Origin: a phage
Direction: 5' to 3' (one strand)
NCBI GenBank assembly: GCA_024683775.1
Contig: GCA_024683775.1_4106.1
DNA length: 64,000 nt
This document shows positions 21,623 to 49,252 of the stretch, one piece after another (within the stretch, counting starts at the first letter, position 1; each line of letters starts with the position of its first letter). The position numbers and the translations under genes were made by a program. The notes below the pieces were generated by a model. It had not been told where the DNA came from. It worked only from the letters and a program-made list of their open reading frames with translations, and searched no databases.

Positions 21623-21738
<116 letters not shown>

Positions 21739-21845: not shown

Positions 21846-22006
<161 letters not shown>

Positions 22007-22010
<4 letters not shown>

Positions 22011-22167
22011 CACATGAAGAATGGATGAATGACATTAATTTTAGATATTCGGGTATCGGTAAATGGCTAAAGTATCATTGGGAATTCATTTCAGAGCCAC
22101 ATCTGTATGATAAACTTATCAACGATCCAGCATATGAAATGTACTTAATTGAACTACTGGTACGAAT

Positions 22168-22171
<4 letters not shown>
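22007..22171 (+). CDS. 54-aa 'MTHEEW' family protein, tandem copy 2
   Basis: ATGA overlap upstream. Nearly identical to copy 1 over the first 19 codons. Confidence 0.5.
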
Positions 22172-22763
<592 letters not shown>

Positions 22764-24123: not shown

Positions 24124-24258
<135 letters not shown>

Positions 24259-24262
24259 AATC

Positions 24263-24352
24263 GGTCCCGTTGCCTAGCGTCCGAAGGCAGCCGACTCATA
24301 ATCGGTCACAGTTAATGACACACCACTGGTTAGAATCCAGTCGGGACCACCA
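24263..24352 (+). tRNA. tRNA with CAT anticodon (Met/Ile2 type) carrying an ~18 nt variable region and a TTA T-loop
   Basis: Acceptor GGTCCCG/CGGGACC plus A plus CCA. D-arm GCCT...AGGC. Anticodon arm GCCGA-CTCATAA-TCGGT. T-arm ACTGG-TTAGAAT-CCAGT. Confidence 0.6.
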
Positions 24353-24356
24353 ATTA

Positions 24357-24429
24357 GACTCTGTAGTTCAGTTGGTAGAACGCTTCACTCATAATGAAGA
24401 AGTCGCTGGTTCAATCCCAGTACTGACCA
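24357..24429 (+). tRNA. tRNA-like (CAT anticodon) with a non-complementary acceptor stem; possible pseudogene
   Basis: Canonical D-arm GTTC-AGTTGGTA-GAAC, anticodon arm CTTCA-CTCATAA-TGAAG and T-arm GCTGG-TTCAATC-CCAGT. The 5' GACTCTG cannot pair with the 3' ACTGACC. Confidence 0.35.
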
Positions 24430-24438
24430 CAAAAAAAA

Positions 24439-26493: not shown

Positions 26494-26575
<82 letters not shown>

Positions 26576-26584
26576 TAAAACAAA

Positions 26585-26668
26585 TGGTAGTTAGCATATC
26601 GGCCTTATGCAACGGACTGTTAATCCGTGTCAGAAATGACAAGACTGGTTCGACTCCAGTACTACCAG
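26585..26668 (+). tRNA. tRNA-Asn (GTT) carrying an extra variable-arm hairpin
   Basis: Acceptor TGGTAGT/ACTACCA. D-arm GCAT...ATGC. Anticodon arm ACGGA-CTGTTAA-TCCGT. 15-nt variable region with a GTCA-GAAA-TGAC hairpin. T-arm ACTGG-TTCGACT-CCAGT. Confidence 0.7.
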
Positions 26669-26733
26669 CAAAACAATCATGAACCTCGGAACAATAAATA
26701 ATATCATACAGGATATTATGAGGTCTAAGGTTC

Positions 26734-40145: not shown

Positions 40146-41111
40146 GTGAAAAAGCTTGATTTAAATGCAATTTCTGAAGAAGTACTGGATGAGTGTTTTG
40201 CTAGTGAAGAAGTCAACGTATTAGAGGCTCTTGATTCCGTCGAAGAAGAAGAACATGACGGTCACAAGTTTGAGAAACCAAAAACAGGTATCAGCTTAAC
40301 TCGCCCTAAAGGGATAACGAATGAAATGCTCATCCAAGCAGTGCGTGATGGTATTGACGTTGAAAAGAACATTGACCTTTTGGTTCGCTACAACTATCCA
40401 ATGGTAGTAAGTGTTGCACGTAAGTGTACATGTTTTATCCCATTTGAAGATAAGATTTCTTATGGTGTTGAAGGTTTAATGCGAGCAATTCATACGTTCG
40501 ACACTACCAAAAATGTTAAGTTCATTACATATGCAACAACAACTGTGTACATGACAATCTATAACGAAAGTGCAGATGCTAATTATCTAGTGCATTTCCC
40601 ACGTTATATGAGTGTTAATAACATTTATGTGAAACGTTGTGTAGAAGAGTATCAAAGGAAACATGGTAAATACCCAACTCCTGAGATGGTGTCAAAAGAG
40701 ACTGGTATTGAGATTCAACACGTTAAGAATTGTCTAACTTACAGTAACACTTATGTAGCATTGAATATGAAAATGAGTAATGATTCAGAAAGTACATTAT
40801 CTGACATTGTTACTTCAGTTGAACCTGATTACAACTTAGGCGTAGAAACTGTCAGTACCCCACTGGTACAAAGTATTGCAGAAATGATGAGTAACCTATC
40901 TGCCAAAGACCGTGAATTGATTGAACGTGTACATGGTATTGGTTCTTATTCTGAACCCGAAACGCTACGAGAAATCATTGAGAGTGGTTTTGAAGATGAG
41001 AAGGGTAAGGTCATGACTGCTCGTTCTTCATTGCACCGTAAGTACTCTGAAGCAATGGAACGACTGCGTAAGATGGTTAAGACAAAAGGTTATGAGTTCG
41101 AAGATTTTTAA
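40146..41111 (+). CDS. sigma-70 family RNA polymerase sigma factor
   Basis: GTG start after a GGAGAAG RBS. Region 2-like 'LVRYNYPMVVSVARK...GVEGLMRAIHTFD...KFITYATTTVYMTIYNE'. Region 4-like 'LSAKDRELIERVHGI...ETLREI...ARSSLHRKYSEAMERLRK'. Confidence 0.75.
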   Translation: MKKLDLNAISEEVLDECFASEEVNVLEALDSVEEEEHDGHKFEKPKTGISLTRPKGITNEMLIQAVRDGIDVEKNIDLLVRYNYPMVVSVARKCTCFIPFEDKISYGVEGLMRAIHTFDTTKNVKFITYATTTVYMTIYNESADANYLVHFPRYMSVNNIYVKRCVEEYQRKHGKYPTPEMVSKETGIEIQHVKNCLTYSNTYVALNMKMSNDSESTLSDIVTSVEPDYNLGVETVSTPLVQSIAEMMSNLSAKDRELIERVHGIGSYSEPETLREIIESGFEDEKGKVMTARSSLHRKYSEAMERLRKMVKTKGYEFEDF

Positions 41112-41119
41112 GATTAAAG

Positions 41120-41145
41120 GGTTGACTTCGGTCAGCCTTTTTTTA
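41120..41145 (+). terminator. terminator hairpin of the repeated TTGACTTCGGTCA cassette family (copy 1)
   Basis: GGTTGAC-TTCG-GTCAGCC hairpin followed by TTTTTTT. Confidence 0.7.
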
Positions 41146-41180
41146 TGGGACAAATTTATTAATGGTGATACAATGATCTA

Positions 41181-41660
41181 TGTACAATCACAATGACAGT
41201 ACTGGTACTGACAATCTTCCCCTACTTCACTTGAAAATGTAAAGGATAGATGAGCTTTTCATTGTAGCGAACAGCAAAAGAAACCCGTTAGATGTGGGCA
41301 TAGTTTGAACCCCTCACGGCAATGCGGCTGTATAAAGAACCACGTTAGGATAGCTGGTGGTTCCTCGATAGACATATAAGGATAACACCTTACGAATTAT
41401 CTAAGGGAGAGTTATCGAATTTTGTACAGGAAAGTTGCGTCCAAAATTTGAGTACTCACATTAAGTATTTGATTGCATAGATACTTAATGAAGATACACT
41501 ATGTTTAAAAGTGTAGACCGTCATATGAAACTGAAGTAGAGAGAAACAGGATGACCCGCTTTCGCACTCGTTATGAGTAATCTTCAATGCAATAGCTCTG
41601 ATACCATCAGCGTCAAATTTCCCTCCGTGCGGGGGGAAGAAAAATCCCTTCCTCAAATCC
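41181..41660 (+). ncRNA. candidate large structured non-coding RNA (~480 nt)
   Basis: Extended -10 TGaTACAAT at 41166-41174. No plausible ORF. Hairpins GAACCAC...GTGGTTC, CATTAAGTAT...ATACTTAATG and ACACT...AGTGT. Terminal hairpin TTCCCTCC-GTGC-GGGGGGAA. Confidence 0.4.
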
Positions 41661-41678
41661 CGTCAATATTAAAAGTCC

Positions 41679-41707
41679 TTGACAGTTATGATTCATTCGC
41701 GTAGAAT
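41679..41707 (+). promoter_or_regulatory. sigma70-type promoter
   Basis: TTGACA at 41679-41684, 17 bp spacer, TAGAAT at 41702-41707. Confidence 0.55.
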
Positions 41708-41771
41708 ACGTAGTATTAGAAGCGAACAGACATCTCGAAGAGATGGATGATTAACCATTGAGGAATATCTA

Positions 41772-41981
41772 ATGAATTCAGTAATCTTTTTAATTATTGC
41801 TCTTTCACCACAATCTGGTGTACAAATCACCCCAATGAATTCAATGAATCAATGCATTGCAGTACGTGACAGTACGTATGAACAAGTAAACAGCGTTTCA
41901 CTTAGAACAGTTGGTGAAGAATTAATGTGGTGTTACAATAGTAATACTAAAGAAAAACTAATTGTTGGACAAACAGAATGA
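41772..41981 (+). CDS. small secreted or membrane-anchored protein
   Basis: Hydrophobic N-terminus 'SVIFLIIALSPQSG'. Confidence 0.5.
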   Translation: MNSVIFLIIALSPQSGVQITPMNSMNQCIAVRDSTYEQVNSVSLRTVGEELMWCYNSNTKEKLIVGQTE

Positions 41982-49060: not shown

Positions 49061-49252
49061 ATGTTGATTTATCAATGTGATAACATTCGTGTTATGCAGC
49101 ATCCCTACTTACAAATCTTTGATGTGCAGCAGTATATGGAAGGTGATGATCCAAGAACCTATGGTCGTAAGTATGATTACTTCACTGTAAAGCAGTGTCG
49201 TGACATCAAAGAAGTACGACAATTAGTTCAAGAACTTCAAAATAAAGGTTGA
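49061..49252 (+). CDS. hypothetical protein
   Basis: ATG at 49061 after a GAGGA RBS. The stop TGA lies inside the cassette TTGACT. Confidence 0.5.
   Translation: MLIYQCDNIRVMQHPYLQIFDVQQYMEGDDPRTYGRKYDYFTVKQCRDIKEVRQLVQELQNKG

What the first reader, a model, noticed from the sequence alone, without database searches (positions are those of the whole stretch)
41181..41660. ~480-nt ORF-less, hairpin-rich region downstream of the sigma factor gene: second candidate large non-coding RNA
An extended -10 element (TGaTACAAT, 41166-41174) precedes about 480 nt without a credible ORF on the plus strand.

There are multiple perfect helices: GAACCAC/GTGGTTC, the 10-bp CATTAAGTAT/ATACTTAATG, ACACT/AGTGT, and a terminal GC hairpin TTCCCTCC-GTGC-GGGGGGAA.

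A separate promoter (41679-41707) then serves the next gene, so this region is its own transcription unit. In such a tightly packed genome, half a kilobase of non-coding sequence is conspicuous.
Basis: seen in the sequence. Interest (0 to 1): 0.6.

Follow-up and report, generated by a model that had tools for sequence, protein, structure and literature searches.

The report
New large structured phage RNA family
The gene-free stretch after the phage sigma factor gene encodes a roughly 430-490 nt, intricately folded non-coding RNA; it belongs to an apparently undescribed family present in several copies in every RaK2-like giant phage and once in small integrating elements of enterobacteria.

Summary

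- **Genome context.** The window is an Asteriusvirus jumbo phage, 100% identical to Escherichia phage EC.P1. Region 41112-41771 is its only stretch of 350 nt or more without a real ORF on either strand.
- **Family.** The region belongs to a family of about 100 sequences.
- **Structure.** I derived about 20 helices, four of them pseudoknots. On 39 members, 86.8% of cells pair (36-44% in slid controls), and 78 of 118 pairs show compensatory double changes. The core helices stay 98-100% paired in 22 further sequences not used to build the model.
- **Other fold evidence.** Junction nucleotides are invariant. One hairpin module sits at two alternative positions in different members. Both point to a compact tertiary fold.
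- **Promoter.** A conserved extended -10 promoter precedes 68 of 82 members.
- **Copy number and range.** EC.P1 has four dispersed copies on the same strand. RaK2 has a divergent copy after its own sigma factor gene.
- **Bacterial copies.** The RNA also occurs once in small integrative elements of Enterobacterales, between the integrase and a CI-like repressor.
- **Known families.** No Rfam 15 family matches, even at E up to 10, and I found no literature on it.

The function is unknown. I favour a trans-acting, compactly folded RNA made early by host RNA polymerase. Rival readings are a cis leader or antiterminator and a replication-primer RNA.

The parts
41120..41144 (+). Upstream boundary: hairpin GGTTGAC-TTCG-GTCAGCC plus T7, the intrinsic terminator of the sigma factor gene (CDS 40146-41111)
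   Evidence: Read directly. The same terminator sequence recurs at 7 other places in the window. The sigma factor is confirmed by Pfam Sigma70_r2 and r3. The simple terminator scan did not list it.
41147..41174 (+). Promoter of the RNA: -35-like GGGACA (41147-52), 16-nt spacer, extended -10 TGATACAAT (41166-74). The predicted start is near 41181.
   Evidence: An extended -10 (TGnTATAAT or TATACT) lies at the equivalent place in 68 of 82 family members, including the bacterial copies. The transcription start is inferred, not measured.
41190..41268 (+). 5' domain. P1: ACAATGA 41190-96 with TCATTGT 41259-65. P1a hairpin: 41197-201 with 41206-10. P1b: irregular hairpin about 41222-49 with conserved loop GAAAAUGUA (41233-41). 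Pseudoknot helix PKB: GCU 41254-56 with AGC 41266-68, which encloses the 3' strand of P1.
   Evidence: P1 is 92% paired and 7 of 8 pairs show double changes. P1a is 91% paired, 7 of 7 pairs. PKB is 100% paired with 3 pair types. PKB is also 100% paired in 22 out-of-sample sequences.
41271..41331 (+). P3 (ACAGC 41271-75 with GCUGU 41327-31), P4 (CCGU 41285-88 with ACGG 41316-19), P5 hairpin with conserved loop CAUAGUUUGAA (41299-309), and the invariant junction CAAUGCG (41320-26).
   Evidence: P3 and P4 are 100% paired, with 4 of 5 P3 pairs compensatory. Both are 100% paired out of sample. In some members P5 is replaced by a longer insert or is absent.
41337..41363 (+).
   Evidence: 7 of 7 pairs show double changes, 91% paired.
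41367..41416 (+). Invariant junction GAUAGACAUAU (41367-77). H-type pseudoknot: P7 UAAGG 41377-81 with CCUUA 41388-92, and P8 AUAAC 41382-86 (in the P7 loop) with GUUAU 41411-15. Invariant AAGGGAG (41403-09) lies in the connecting loop.
   Evidence: P7 is 97% paired, with UAAGG/CCUUA, UAGG/CCUA and UGAG/CUCA variants. P8 is found sequence by sequence in 32 of 39 members, with variants AUAAC/GUUAU, AUCGCA/UGCGAU, AUACUA/UAGUAU, AUGCA/UGCAU and CCAAA/UUUGG. P8 is poorly aligned in A3 (36% paired).
41418..41448 (+). P9 module: stem AAUUUUG / CAAAAUU with a 17-nt loop (family consensus UACAAUAUAGAUCCGUC)
   Evidence: The module is present here in 25 of 39 aligned members. In 14 of 39 the same module is inserted inside P16, and some members have both.
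41459..41514 (+). Its loop AUUGCAU (41472-78) forms pseudoknot P11 with AUGCAAU at 41587-93. P12 hairpin: ACACU 41496-500 with AGUGU 41510-14.
   Evidence: P10 has 9 of 9 pairs with double changes. P11 is 99.3% paired, 6 of 7 pairs compensatory. P11 is 100% paired with 8 variants out of sample. P12 is 83% paired, and 94% out of sample.
41515..41593 (+). 3' core. P13 pseudoknot: GUCAU 41520-24 with AUGAC 41551-55, which lies in the P15 loop. P14: UGAAG 41532-36 with CUUCA 41582-86. P15: GAGAG 41539-43 with CUUUC 41559-63. P16: ACUC 41566-69 with GAGU 41575-78. Invariant GACCGU and ACCCGC. The 3' strand of P11 lies at 41587-93.
   Evidence: P13, P14 and P15 are each 100% paired, with 3, 4 and 4 compensatory pairs. 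Out of sample they are 98-100% paired.
41600..41614 (+). P18 region, ending in the conserved AUCAGCGUCA. This is the last element before the point where 34 of 81 relatives carry a T-run of 5 or more, usually after a hairpin. It is the probable 3' end of the core RNA in those relatives.
   Evidence: P18 is weakly supported: 70% paired, only one-sided changes. This window copy has no T-run here.
41619..41667 (+). 3' module: hairpin P17 (UUCCCUCC-GUGC-GGGGGGAA, 41619-38) with an invariant G-run, and the conserved box CAAAUCCCGUCAAU (41654-67)
   Evidence: Conserved in all contexts, including the copies that have a terminator before it. P17 varies only by C/U opposite G. The box and the G-run motif are unique to this locus in the window. 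Its role is unknown.
41679..41707 (+). Next sigma-70-type promoter, TTGACA-17-TAGAAT, ahead of the 69-aa ORF at 41772-41981
   Evidence: 11 of 12 matches. A -35-like GT(G/A)TT(G/A)AAC lies at the equivalent distance after the box in many relatives.

Best explanation
Region 41181 to about 41614-41670 is a gene for a large non-coding RNA. The core is about 430 nt, or about 490 nt with the 3' module. It is probably transcribed by host sigma-70 RNA polymerase from its own extended -10 promoter, so early in infection. It folds into a compact, multi-pseudoknotted tertiary structure.

Shown:
- It belongs to a conserved family.
- The secondary structure, including the pseudoknots, is maintained by compensatory evolution.
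- The promoter is conserved.
- It does not encode a conserved protein.
- It occurs as 3-6 anciently diverged paralogues per RaK2-like jumbo phage genome and as a single copy in small integrative elements of Enterobacterales.

Inferred:
- It acts in trans as a folded RNA: a ribozyme, a protein-binding scaffold, or a self-assembling 'ornate' RNA like ROOL or GOLLD. It is not primarily a leader for the gene downstream.
- No phage- or element-encoded protein is consistently next to it, so its partner, if any, is most likely a conserved host component such as the translation, transcription or RNA-decay machinery, or a defence factor.
- The paralogues give either dosage or diversified specificity.

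The biochemical activity is not known.
For: - **Conservation.** The core keeps about 70% nucleotide identity across phage genera, with invariant blocks separated by variable helices.
- **Structure.** RNAalifold found 52 pairs, 30 with double changes. My curated structure has 118 pairs: 86.8% of cells pair against 36-44% when slid, 78 pairs are compensatory, and 0 of 500 shuffles reach the observed value. In 22 non-redundant sequences not used to build the model, the core helices stay 98-100% paired with new variants.
- **Strand.** G.U cells outnumber A.C cells 298 to 155, which favours the + strand. The conserved promoter is also on that strand.
- **Tertiary fold.** There are four pseudoknots and invariant junctions, and the P9 module sits at either of two sites.
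- **Not a gene leader in every copy.** The Munch/EC.P1 copy-C type and all the integrative-element copies have no same-strand gene downstream.
- **Discrete RNA in many copies.** 34 of 81 have a T-run of 5 or more after P18, and inspected copies show a terminator hairpin before it.
- **No conserved neighbouring protein**.
- **Not a known RNA.** No Rfam family matches the window region or 15 relatives at E up to 10. No tRNA or tmRNA lies here.
Against: - There is no direct evidence of a transcript, of its ends or of its stability for any member.
- The single-sequence folding energy is not significantly low.
- This window copy has no terminator before the next promoter and genes. Here the RNA could simply be the 5' part of a long early mRNA.
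- The 3' module lies beyond the terminator in many relatives yet is strictly conserved. A simple 'one discrete RNA' model does not explain that.
- Nothing found here points to a specific activity or partner.
Confidence: 0.6

Rival explanations
1. It is a cis-acting leader. In one version the folded RNA modifies the transcribing host polymerase, giving processive antitermination as with HK022 put or the Bacillus EAR element. In another it senses a signal and decides whether transcription passes the terminator after the core. Either way it controls the downstream early genes.
For: - In this copy nothing terminates transcription between the RNA and the genes at 41772 onward.
- Almost all jumbo-phage copies are followed by same-strand genes.
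- 34 of 81 members carry a T-run of 5 or more right after the core.
- In one subgroup the terminator stem GUCAGA...UCUGAC overlaps the conserved CGUCAG of P18, so the two structures would be mutually exclusive.
- The genome is full of intrinsic terminators between early genes.
Against: - Copies in the integrative elements and the Munch-type copy have no same-strand gene to regulate. They run into a convergent repressor gene or minus-strand genes.
- A separate promoter-like site follows the element.
- The downstream genes differ between paralogues.
- Known RNA antiterminators are 65-120 nt (my own knowledge of the HK022 put and EAR literature), not 430 nt with four pseudoknots.
- The terminator overlap is seen in only one subgroup.
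Confidence: 0.15
2. It is a replication-origin transcript. A structured pre-primer RNA, as in ColE1 RNA II or the T4 oriF/oriG R-loops, would form a persistent RNA-DNA hybrid through its G-run / C-rich 3' module. That hybrid would prime DNA synthesis. A small integrative element carrying a copy would then be replicated by the jumbo phage replisome.
For: - Four copies lie on the same strand, 52-112 kb apart, around a 356 kb genome.
- Each unit is a promoter, then a structured RNA, then an invariant G6 run in a C/G hairpin, then a conserved box, then AT-rich DNA.
- The 3' module is conserved even where a terminator precedes it, as a DNA-level site would be.
- A copy occurs in small mobile elements that lack recognisable phage replication genes.
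Against: - Cumulative GC skew shows no feature at the copies; it follows gene orientation.
- P17 varies by C/U opposite G. That pattern preserves an RNA hairpin (G.U) but not a DNA one.
- A terminator before the G-run in about 40% of copies would stop the proposed primer short of its hybrid site.
- No origin has been mapped in this phage group, to my knowledge.
Confidence: 0.1
3. It is a DNA-level repeated element or a decayed or small protein gene, for example a recombination or packaging site, a mobile-element relic or a pseudogene. In this reading the helices are incidental.
For: - The element is repeated in each genome, and one GenBank record labels part of it 'repeat_region'.
- Several records annotate short hypothetical CDSs over it.
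- The single-sequence folding z-score is not significant.
Against: - 78 base pairs change on both sides while keeping their pairing, including long-range pseudoknot pairs. The pairing holds in independent sequences.
- G.U pairs are tolerated.
- Indels are not multiples of three, and the longest ORF falls to 31 aa in some members.
- The paralogues sit at syntenic positions across genera, so the element has not been recently mobile.
Confidence: 0.03

Closest known systems
ROOL and GOLLD (large 'ornate' RNAs found mostly in phages and prophages; Rfam families; cryo-EM shows RNA-only homo-oligomeric cages, PMC12286853)
   Same: - A large, intricately structured non-coding RNA with pseudoknots and conserved junctions.
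- Encoded by phages and integrated elements.
- No associated protein gene and no known function.
- The loop-to-strand pairings I call pseudoknots (for example P11) could equally be contacts between identical molecules. Covariation cannot tell these apart.
   Different: - No sequence or structure match to either Rfam model at E up to 10.
- Smaller, at about 430-490 nt.
- Hosts are Enterobacterales and Xanthomonas phages rather than Lactobacillales, rumen or lake bacteria.
- Present as 3-6 diverged paralogues per genome.
- Not adjacent to tRNA genes: the nearest tRNA in the window is 12 kb away.
- Oligomerisation is untested.
HK022 put RNA and Bacillus EAR (RNA elements that make RNA polymerase resistant to terminators)
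   Same: - Phage-encoded, promoter-proximal structured RNA.
- Followed by terminators and same-strand genes in many copies.
   Different: - Four to six times larger and much more complex.
- Several copies have nothing downstream to antiterminate.
- No sequence similarity is known.
- The activity is untested.
ColE1 RNA II and T4 origin R-loop transcripts (structured pre-primer RNAs)
   Same: - A promoter-driven RNA of about 0.5 kb.
- Its fold precedes a G-rich segment.
- Several dispersed copies fit a large genome that might need several origins.
   Different: - No evidence of origin function.
- A terminator often precedes the G-run.
- No homology.
phi29 pRNA (packaging-motor RNA that oligomerises through loop-loop pairing)
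   Same: - A phage-encoded structured RNA.
- Covarying loop pairings that could act between molecules.
   Different: - pRNA is about 120-174 nt, single copy and restricted to phi29-like phages.
- It is absent from Rfam hits here.
- Nothing links this RNA to packaging.
PA5oct ncRNA002 (451-nt RNA-seq-defined 'lncRNA' of a related Pseudomonas jumbo phage, PMC7318152)
   Same: - Similar size.
- ORF-free and abundant early and middle in infection, in a phage of the same broad clade.
- It shows that such phages do make abundant RNAs of about 450 nt.
   Different: No detectable sequence homology: nhmmer with --max found no hit in L056, which holds ncRNA001 and ncRNA002.

Membership tests
Any Rfam 15 family (4227 covariance models) | Score at or above the family's gathering threshold, or at least a consistent sub-threshold match across homologues | tested here: not met
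   At gathering threshold the window gives only 7 tRNAs, all elsewhere. At E up to 10 on 41050-41850 there are only terminator look-alikes and one snoRNA chance hit. Fifteen diverse relatives at E up to 10 give no hit inside the element.
Group I intron | Insertion in a host gene with flanking exons; P3-P7 pseudoknot order (P3 5', P4-P6, P7 5', P3 3', P8, P7 3'); match to RF00028 | tested here: not met
   The element lies after a stop codon and a terminator and has its own promoter. The helix order is X5'-Y5'-Z5'-X3'-Z3'-hairpin-Y3' (P13, P14, P15, P16), which differs from P3/P7/P8. No Rfam match.
Bacterial RNase P RNA | P4 pseudoknot formed by CR-I (GAGGAAAGUCC...) and CR-V (ACAGAAnCCGGCUUA); match to the RNase P models | tested here: not met
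   The segment GAAACAGGAUGACCCGCUUUCG resembles CR-V only superficially. Covariation shows it pairs locally (P13 and P15, both 100% paired), and there is no CR-I partner. No Rfam match.
tmRNA or tRNA-like RNA | Acceptor/T-arm tRNA-like domain and a tag reading frame | tested here: not met
   ARAGORN finds 7 tRNAs elsewhere in the window and no tmRNA. No Rfam tmRNA hit.
ROOL / GOLLD | Match to the family covariance model | tested here: not met
   No hit at E up to 10 in the window region or in 15 relatives.
ROOL / GOLLD | Homo-oligomeric RNA-only cage | not testable with these tools
   This needs native gels, mass photometry or cryo-EM of the transcript.
HEARO / omega-RNA of IscB or TnpB | RNA immediately adjacent to an IscB or TnpB (RuvC-containing) nuclease gene; match to the Rfam models | tested here: not met
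   The neighbours differ between copies, and none is shared across the two kinds of locus (jumbo phage and integrative element). The 264-aa protein downstream in the window has no Pfam domain. No Rfam match.
Riboswitch or cis-regulatory leader | Always upstream of a regulated same-strand gene, with an expression platform overlapping the aptamer | tested here: not met
   The integrative-element copies and the Munch-type copy lack a downstream same-strand gene. The terminator overlap with P18 occurs in only one subgroup.
Processive antiterminator RNA (put / EAR) | Makes the transcribing polymerase read through downstream terminators | not testable with these tools
   This needs in vitro transcription or reporter assays. 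The context is compatible in some copies only.
Protein-coding gene or small ORF | An ORF conserved in position and frame across relatives | tested here: not met
   The longest ORF per member ranges from 31 to 85 aa, on varying strands and positions. Indels are not in multiples of three. The pattern of variation is paired-column, not codon-like.

The most novel reading that the evidence does not exclude
The RNA is a catalytic or self-assembling RNA machine that RaK2-like jumbo phages need early in infection. It could work as hetero- or homo-oligomers of the 3-6 paralogues. The small integrative elements of Enterobacterales carry their own copy in order to exploit or sabotage that machine: either a satellite-helper relationship or a defence relationship, mediated by RNA mimicry rather than by a protein.
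Probability: 0.12. Interest if true: 0.95.

Novelty: categorically new. Interest (0 to 1): 0.8.

Why it matters
Very few classes of large, complex-folded bacterial or phage RNAs above about 400 nt are known. Examples are rRNA, RNase P, group I and II introns, tmRNA, OLE, GOLLD, ROOL and HEARO. Each has turned out to be a ribozyme, a ribonucleoprotein core or an unexpected RNA architecture.

This one has several practical advantages:
- It lies in culturable E. coli phages such as 121Q, PBECO4 and phAPEC6.
- It comes with natural paralogue series and natural module swaps that help structure work.
- It is shared between giant lytic phages and tiny integrated elements, which hints at a role in phage-host or phage-element conflict.

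The finding also corrects annotation. Several GenBank records place hypothetical CDSs on this RNA.

Tried and rejected
- **Rfam.** Searches at gathering threshold and at E up to 10, on the window and on 15 relatives, found nothing in the element.
- **tRNA and tmRNA.** ARAGORN found none here.
- **Second copy in the window.** There is none. blastn with word size 7 found only the repeated terminator, and nhmmer over the whole genome places the other three copies outside the window.
- **Single-sequence thermodynamics.** Not decisive, and even slightly better on the wrong strand.
- **Simple terminator scan.** It reported 0 sites in 38-45 kb, although a textbook hairpin plus T7 lies at 41120-41144. 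I therefore did not rely on it.
- **Conserved partner protein.** I clustered the flanking ORFs. Neighbours are syntenic only within each paralogue group, and none is shared between phage and bacterial contexts.
- **HNH / HEARO idea.** The downstream 264-aa protein has no Pfam domain.
- **PA5oct ncRNA002.** No similarity, so it is not a homologue with expression data.
- **GC-skew link to replication origins.** None.
- **3' box as a general promoter motif.** It is unique to this locus in the window. Within a possible -35/-10 reading the conserved bases would fall in the spacer, so I rejected it as a plain promoter.
- **AAGGGAG as the Shine-Dalgarno of a small ORF.** No start codon is conserved after it.
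- **Alternative pairing of AAGGGAG with the P7 3' strand.** Rejected, because AAGGGAG stays invariant when that strand changes.
- **Literature.** Searches by phage names, RNA terms and motif strings found no description.
- **Other ORF-free gaps in the window.** All turned out to hold a minus-strand gene or tandem small ORFs.
Full report
**Identity of the window and check of the observation**

The window is an Asteriusvirus (121Q/PBECO4-like) jumbo phage. Region 41100-41780 is 100% identical to Escherichia phage EC.P1 (PQ657772.1) and 88-99.9% identical (full-length matches) to about 30 other Escherichia and Salmonella jumbo phages.

- The extended -10 TGATACAAT lies at 41166-74.
- The four helices are present.
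- The next promoter, TTGACA-17-TAGAAT, lies at 41679-707.

The sigma factor CDS (40146-41111; Pfam Sigma70_r2 and r3) ends in a hairpin plus T7 terminator at 41120-44. The next CDS starts at 41772. The 660 nt between them hold only a 43-aa + strand ORF and a 66-aa - strand ORF.

This is the only ORF-free + strand gap of 350 nt or more in the window that is not filled by a minus-strand gene or by tandem small ORFs.

On its own the sequence is not an unusually good folder: the z-score is -1.67. The case rests on comparison with relatives.

**A conserved, multi-copy family**

The core (about 41200-41677) is about 70% identical at the nucleotide level in Pectobacterium phage CBB, Cronobacter phage GAP32, Serratia phage BF, and Erwinia, Yersinia, Salmonella (Munch-like) and Xanthomonas jumbo phages. 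It always lies in a CDS-free gap of about 650 nt.

Every genome has several copies. Two conserved-block patterns recovered 23 and 48 stretches from IMG/VR, with overlap between the two sets. An HMM confirmed 46 hits, 39 of them unique and full length. Ten pattern hits were chance matches.

I reassembled the EC.P1 genome from the window plus seven fetched pieces. It holds four copies, all on the window's + strand, at reverse-complement coordinates 49.2, 101.5, 186.6 and 299.2 kb. The last is the window copy. Yersinia phage fHe-Yen9-04 has five.

Paralogues are only 55-70% identical to one another. Each sits at a syntenic position across genera, so the duplications are old and each copy is maintained. 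Klebsiella phage RaK2 has a divergent member (E = 1e-38) directly after its own sigma factor gene, syntenic with the window copy.

**Structure**

The alignments show invariant blocks separated by helices that change on both strands. The invariant blocks include:
- GAAAAUGUA
- GAAACCCGUUAG
- CGGCAAUGCGGC
- GAUAGACAUAU
- AAGGGAG
- GACCGU
- AACCCGC
- CGUCA

RNAalifold on 24 sequences gave 52 pairs, 30 of them with compensatory double changes. An all-against-all column scan and inspection added pseudoknots.

I tested the curated model (118 pairs, 20 helices) on 39 sequences:
- 86.8% of cells pair, against 36-44% when the 3' partners are slid by 1-3 columns.
- 78 pairs have changes on both sides.
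- The covariation score is 0.449 against 0.07-0.13 for the slid versions.
- No shuffle out of 500 reaches the observed values.

| Element | Paired | Comment |
|---|---|---|
| P3, P4, P13, P14, P15, PKB | 100% | most pairs with compensatory variants; P4 is nearly invariant |
| P11 | 99.3% | 6 of 7 pairs compensatory |
| P8 | 36% in the alignment | mis-aligned; found sequence by sequence in 32 of 39, with at least five distinct complementary variants |
| P17, P18 | 81% and 70% | P18 shows only one-sided changes; P17 varies almost only by C/U opposite G |

As an out-of-sample test I added 22 further non-redundant sequences from bacteria and metagenomes to the fixed columns. PKB, P3, P4, P11 and P13 stayed 100% paired, P14 99% and P15 98%, with new variants.

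G.U cells (298) outnumber A.C cells (155), which favours the + strand.

There are four pseudoknots:
- PKB with P1.
- P7 with P8.
- The P10 loop with P11.
- P13 with the P15 loop.

One hairpin module (P9, loop UACAAUAUAGAUCCGUC) lies after P8 in 25 of 39 members. In 14 of 39 it lies inside P16 instead. A few members have both. In known large RNAs, relocation of a peripheral module with the core kept intact is typical of a tertiary-contact element. That comparison is my inference from general RNA structural knowledge.

No ORF is conserved. The longest ORF in some members is 31-36 aa.

**Transcription signals and boundaries**

An extended -10 (TGnTATAAT or TATACT) precedes P1 by 13-19 nt in most members. 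In one subgroup it lies 30-48 nt upstream, followed by a short hairpin and T-run. Overall it is present in 68 of 82 members, including the bacterial copies. Many share a TGAAAC or GGGACA element 16-17 nt upstream of the -10. The promoter therefore travels with the RNA.

At the 3' side, 34 of 81 members have a T-run of 5 or more after P18. In the copies I inspected it follows a hairpin, that is, a terminator-like structure. This window copy has none.

Beyond that point every member keeps a 3' module: a C-rich/G6 hairpin (P17) and a box CAAAYCNCGUCA. Both are unique to this locus in the window.

Further downstream, about half the relatives share a hairpin with loop GAACGWAGUGA, then CTTGAC, then a short hairpin. 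In the window copy this is weak.

The RNA is thus a core of about 430 nt, with a conserved 3' extension whose status is unresolved. It could be part of the same RNA, a second transcript or a DNA site.

**Distribution beyond jumbo phages**

In the GenBank phage collection only RaK2-like jumbo phages have the element.

A scan of one genome per bacterial species gave 11 pattern hits. My own estimate is that about 7 would be expected by chance. Even so, nine are full-length or nearly full-length homologues (E = 1e-54 to 1e-88). They come from Citrobacter, Enterobacter, Serratia, Silvania, Buttiauxella and unclassified Enterobacteriaceae.

A metagenome scan gave 65 hits, of which 58 are true members.

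The loci I inspected that are not jumbo-phage-like share one architecture: an integrase (a large serine recombinase or a tyrosine integrase) on the + strand, then the RNA (+), a CI-like S24 repressor (-), a Cro-like gene (+), a 286-aa protein, a 138-aa protein and a DNA invertase. Most of these proteins have no Pfam or PHROG assignment.

Only 2 of 5,426 complete E. coli genomes carry it. In strain LR-29-1 it lies, unannotated, in an island of about 10.8 kb between ffs and ybaA. The island also holds candidate defence genes (PDC-M45).

**Comparison with known families**

No Rfam 15 model matches the window region or 15 diverse relatives, even at E up to 10.
- It is not a group I intron. It has its own promoter, lies after a terminator and has a different helix order.
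- It is not RNase P RNA. The CR-V-like string pairs locally and there is no CR-I.
- It is not a tmRNA.
- It is not HEARO or an omega-RNA, because there is no nuclease partner.
- The RNA-seq-defined 451-nt ncRNA002 of the related phage PA5oct is not homologous.

It works most like the 'ornate large' phage RNAs ROOL and GOLLD, but it is not a member of either family. Text searches, including for the motif strings, found no description.

**Mechanism**

What is shown:
- A conserved, promoter-equipped, non-coding element.
- A fold that is under selection.

What I infer:
- It is a trans-acting folded RNA made early by host polymerase.
- It works alone or with a conserved host component, because no encoded protein accompanies it.
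- It is not primarily a leader, because several copies have no same-strand gene downstream.

I put about 0.6 on this package. That combines about 0.95 that it is a genuine structured RNA gene with much less certainty on the trans-acting part.

The rivals are:
- A cis-acting antiterminator or attenuator: 0.15.
- An origin or pre-primer RNA using the G-run module: 0.10. Nothing tested supports it; GC skew is uninformative.
- A DNA-level or coding explanation: 0.03.

The covarying loop-strand pairings could also form between identical molecules. Oligomeric assembly therefore remains open.

**Limits**

- No transcript data exist for any member, so the ends and abundance are predictions.
- The alignment is imperfect in the variable helices (P1b, P5, P8).
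- The shuffle control ignores phylogeny. The slid-partner control and the out-of-sample test address this.
- The role of the 3' module and of the downstream semi-conserved hairpins is unexplained.

Noticed in passing
window 41120-41144; also near 49244, 52832, 53618, 55693, 56377, 60995, 61585: The same intrinsic terminator sequence (GGGTTGACTTCGGTCAGCC plus a T-run) recurs at least 8 times on the + strand of the window, at 87-96% identity over 27-34 nt. It looks like a standardised terminator cassette between early genes. The built-in terminator scan did not list the copy at 41120-41144.
   Followed up: partly
Downstream of the 3' box in relatives (e.g. L003:1995-2050, L030, L118); weak in window 41685-41760: About half the family members share a further element: a hairpin with apical loop GAACGWAGUGA (possibly tandem G.A pairs, an AC/GU step and a GNA loop), then CTTGAC, then a 12-13-nt hairpin, then GGCRA. 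It persists even where no gene follows. It may be a second small RNA or part of the same unit.
   Followed up: partly
L069, L068, L065, L074, L084, L137 and others; L075 (E. coli LR-29-1, NZ_AP027515.1 about 3,472,900-3,483,600): An uncharacterised family of small integrative elements in Enterobacterales carries the RNA. The gene order is integrase, RNA, CI-like repressor, Cro, a 286-aa protein, a 138-aa protein and an invertase, with no recognisable virion genes in the stretches seen. In E. coli LR-29-1 the island sits next to ffs and carries candidate defence genes (PDC-M45: DuOB, DUF488, mSLOG-DUF4326). It could be a satellite or a defence island.
   Followed up: partly
Promoters upstream of family members (e.g. 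L004, L015, L021, L069; 35 nt before the -10): Many copies share a (A/T)TGAAAC element exactly 17 nt upstream of the extended -10, in place of a TTGACA-like -35. The bacterial copies have it too. It may be a distinct promoter class or an activator site.
   Followed up: no
GenBank records: GAP32_503A (L004:1841-1954), RaK2 F403_gp290 (L141:933-1139), several 'hypothetical protein' CDSs in WPEC3/5, SD-x_S1x, E9.1, JP4: Short hypothetical CDSs annotated on top of the RNA are not conserved as ORFs. They are probably annotation artefacts.
   Followed up: partly
window 21846-22332: Three tandem ATG-initiated ORFs of exactly 54 aa each, with overlapping stop and start codons, lie just downstream of tRNA-Ser (21649-21738). 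They may be a small tandemly duplicated gene family.
   Followed up: no
window 24164-24430 and 26494-26669: The tRNA cluster has three tRNA-Met(CAT) calls and a tRNA-Ser with anticodon ACT. One call (24358-24430) matches the Rfam tRNA model only over positions 8-63. These are unusual or degenerate tRNAs.
   Followed up: no
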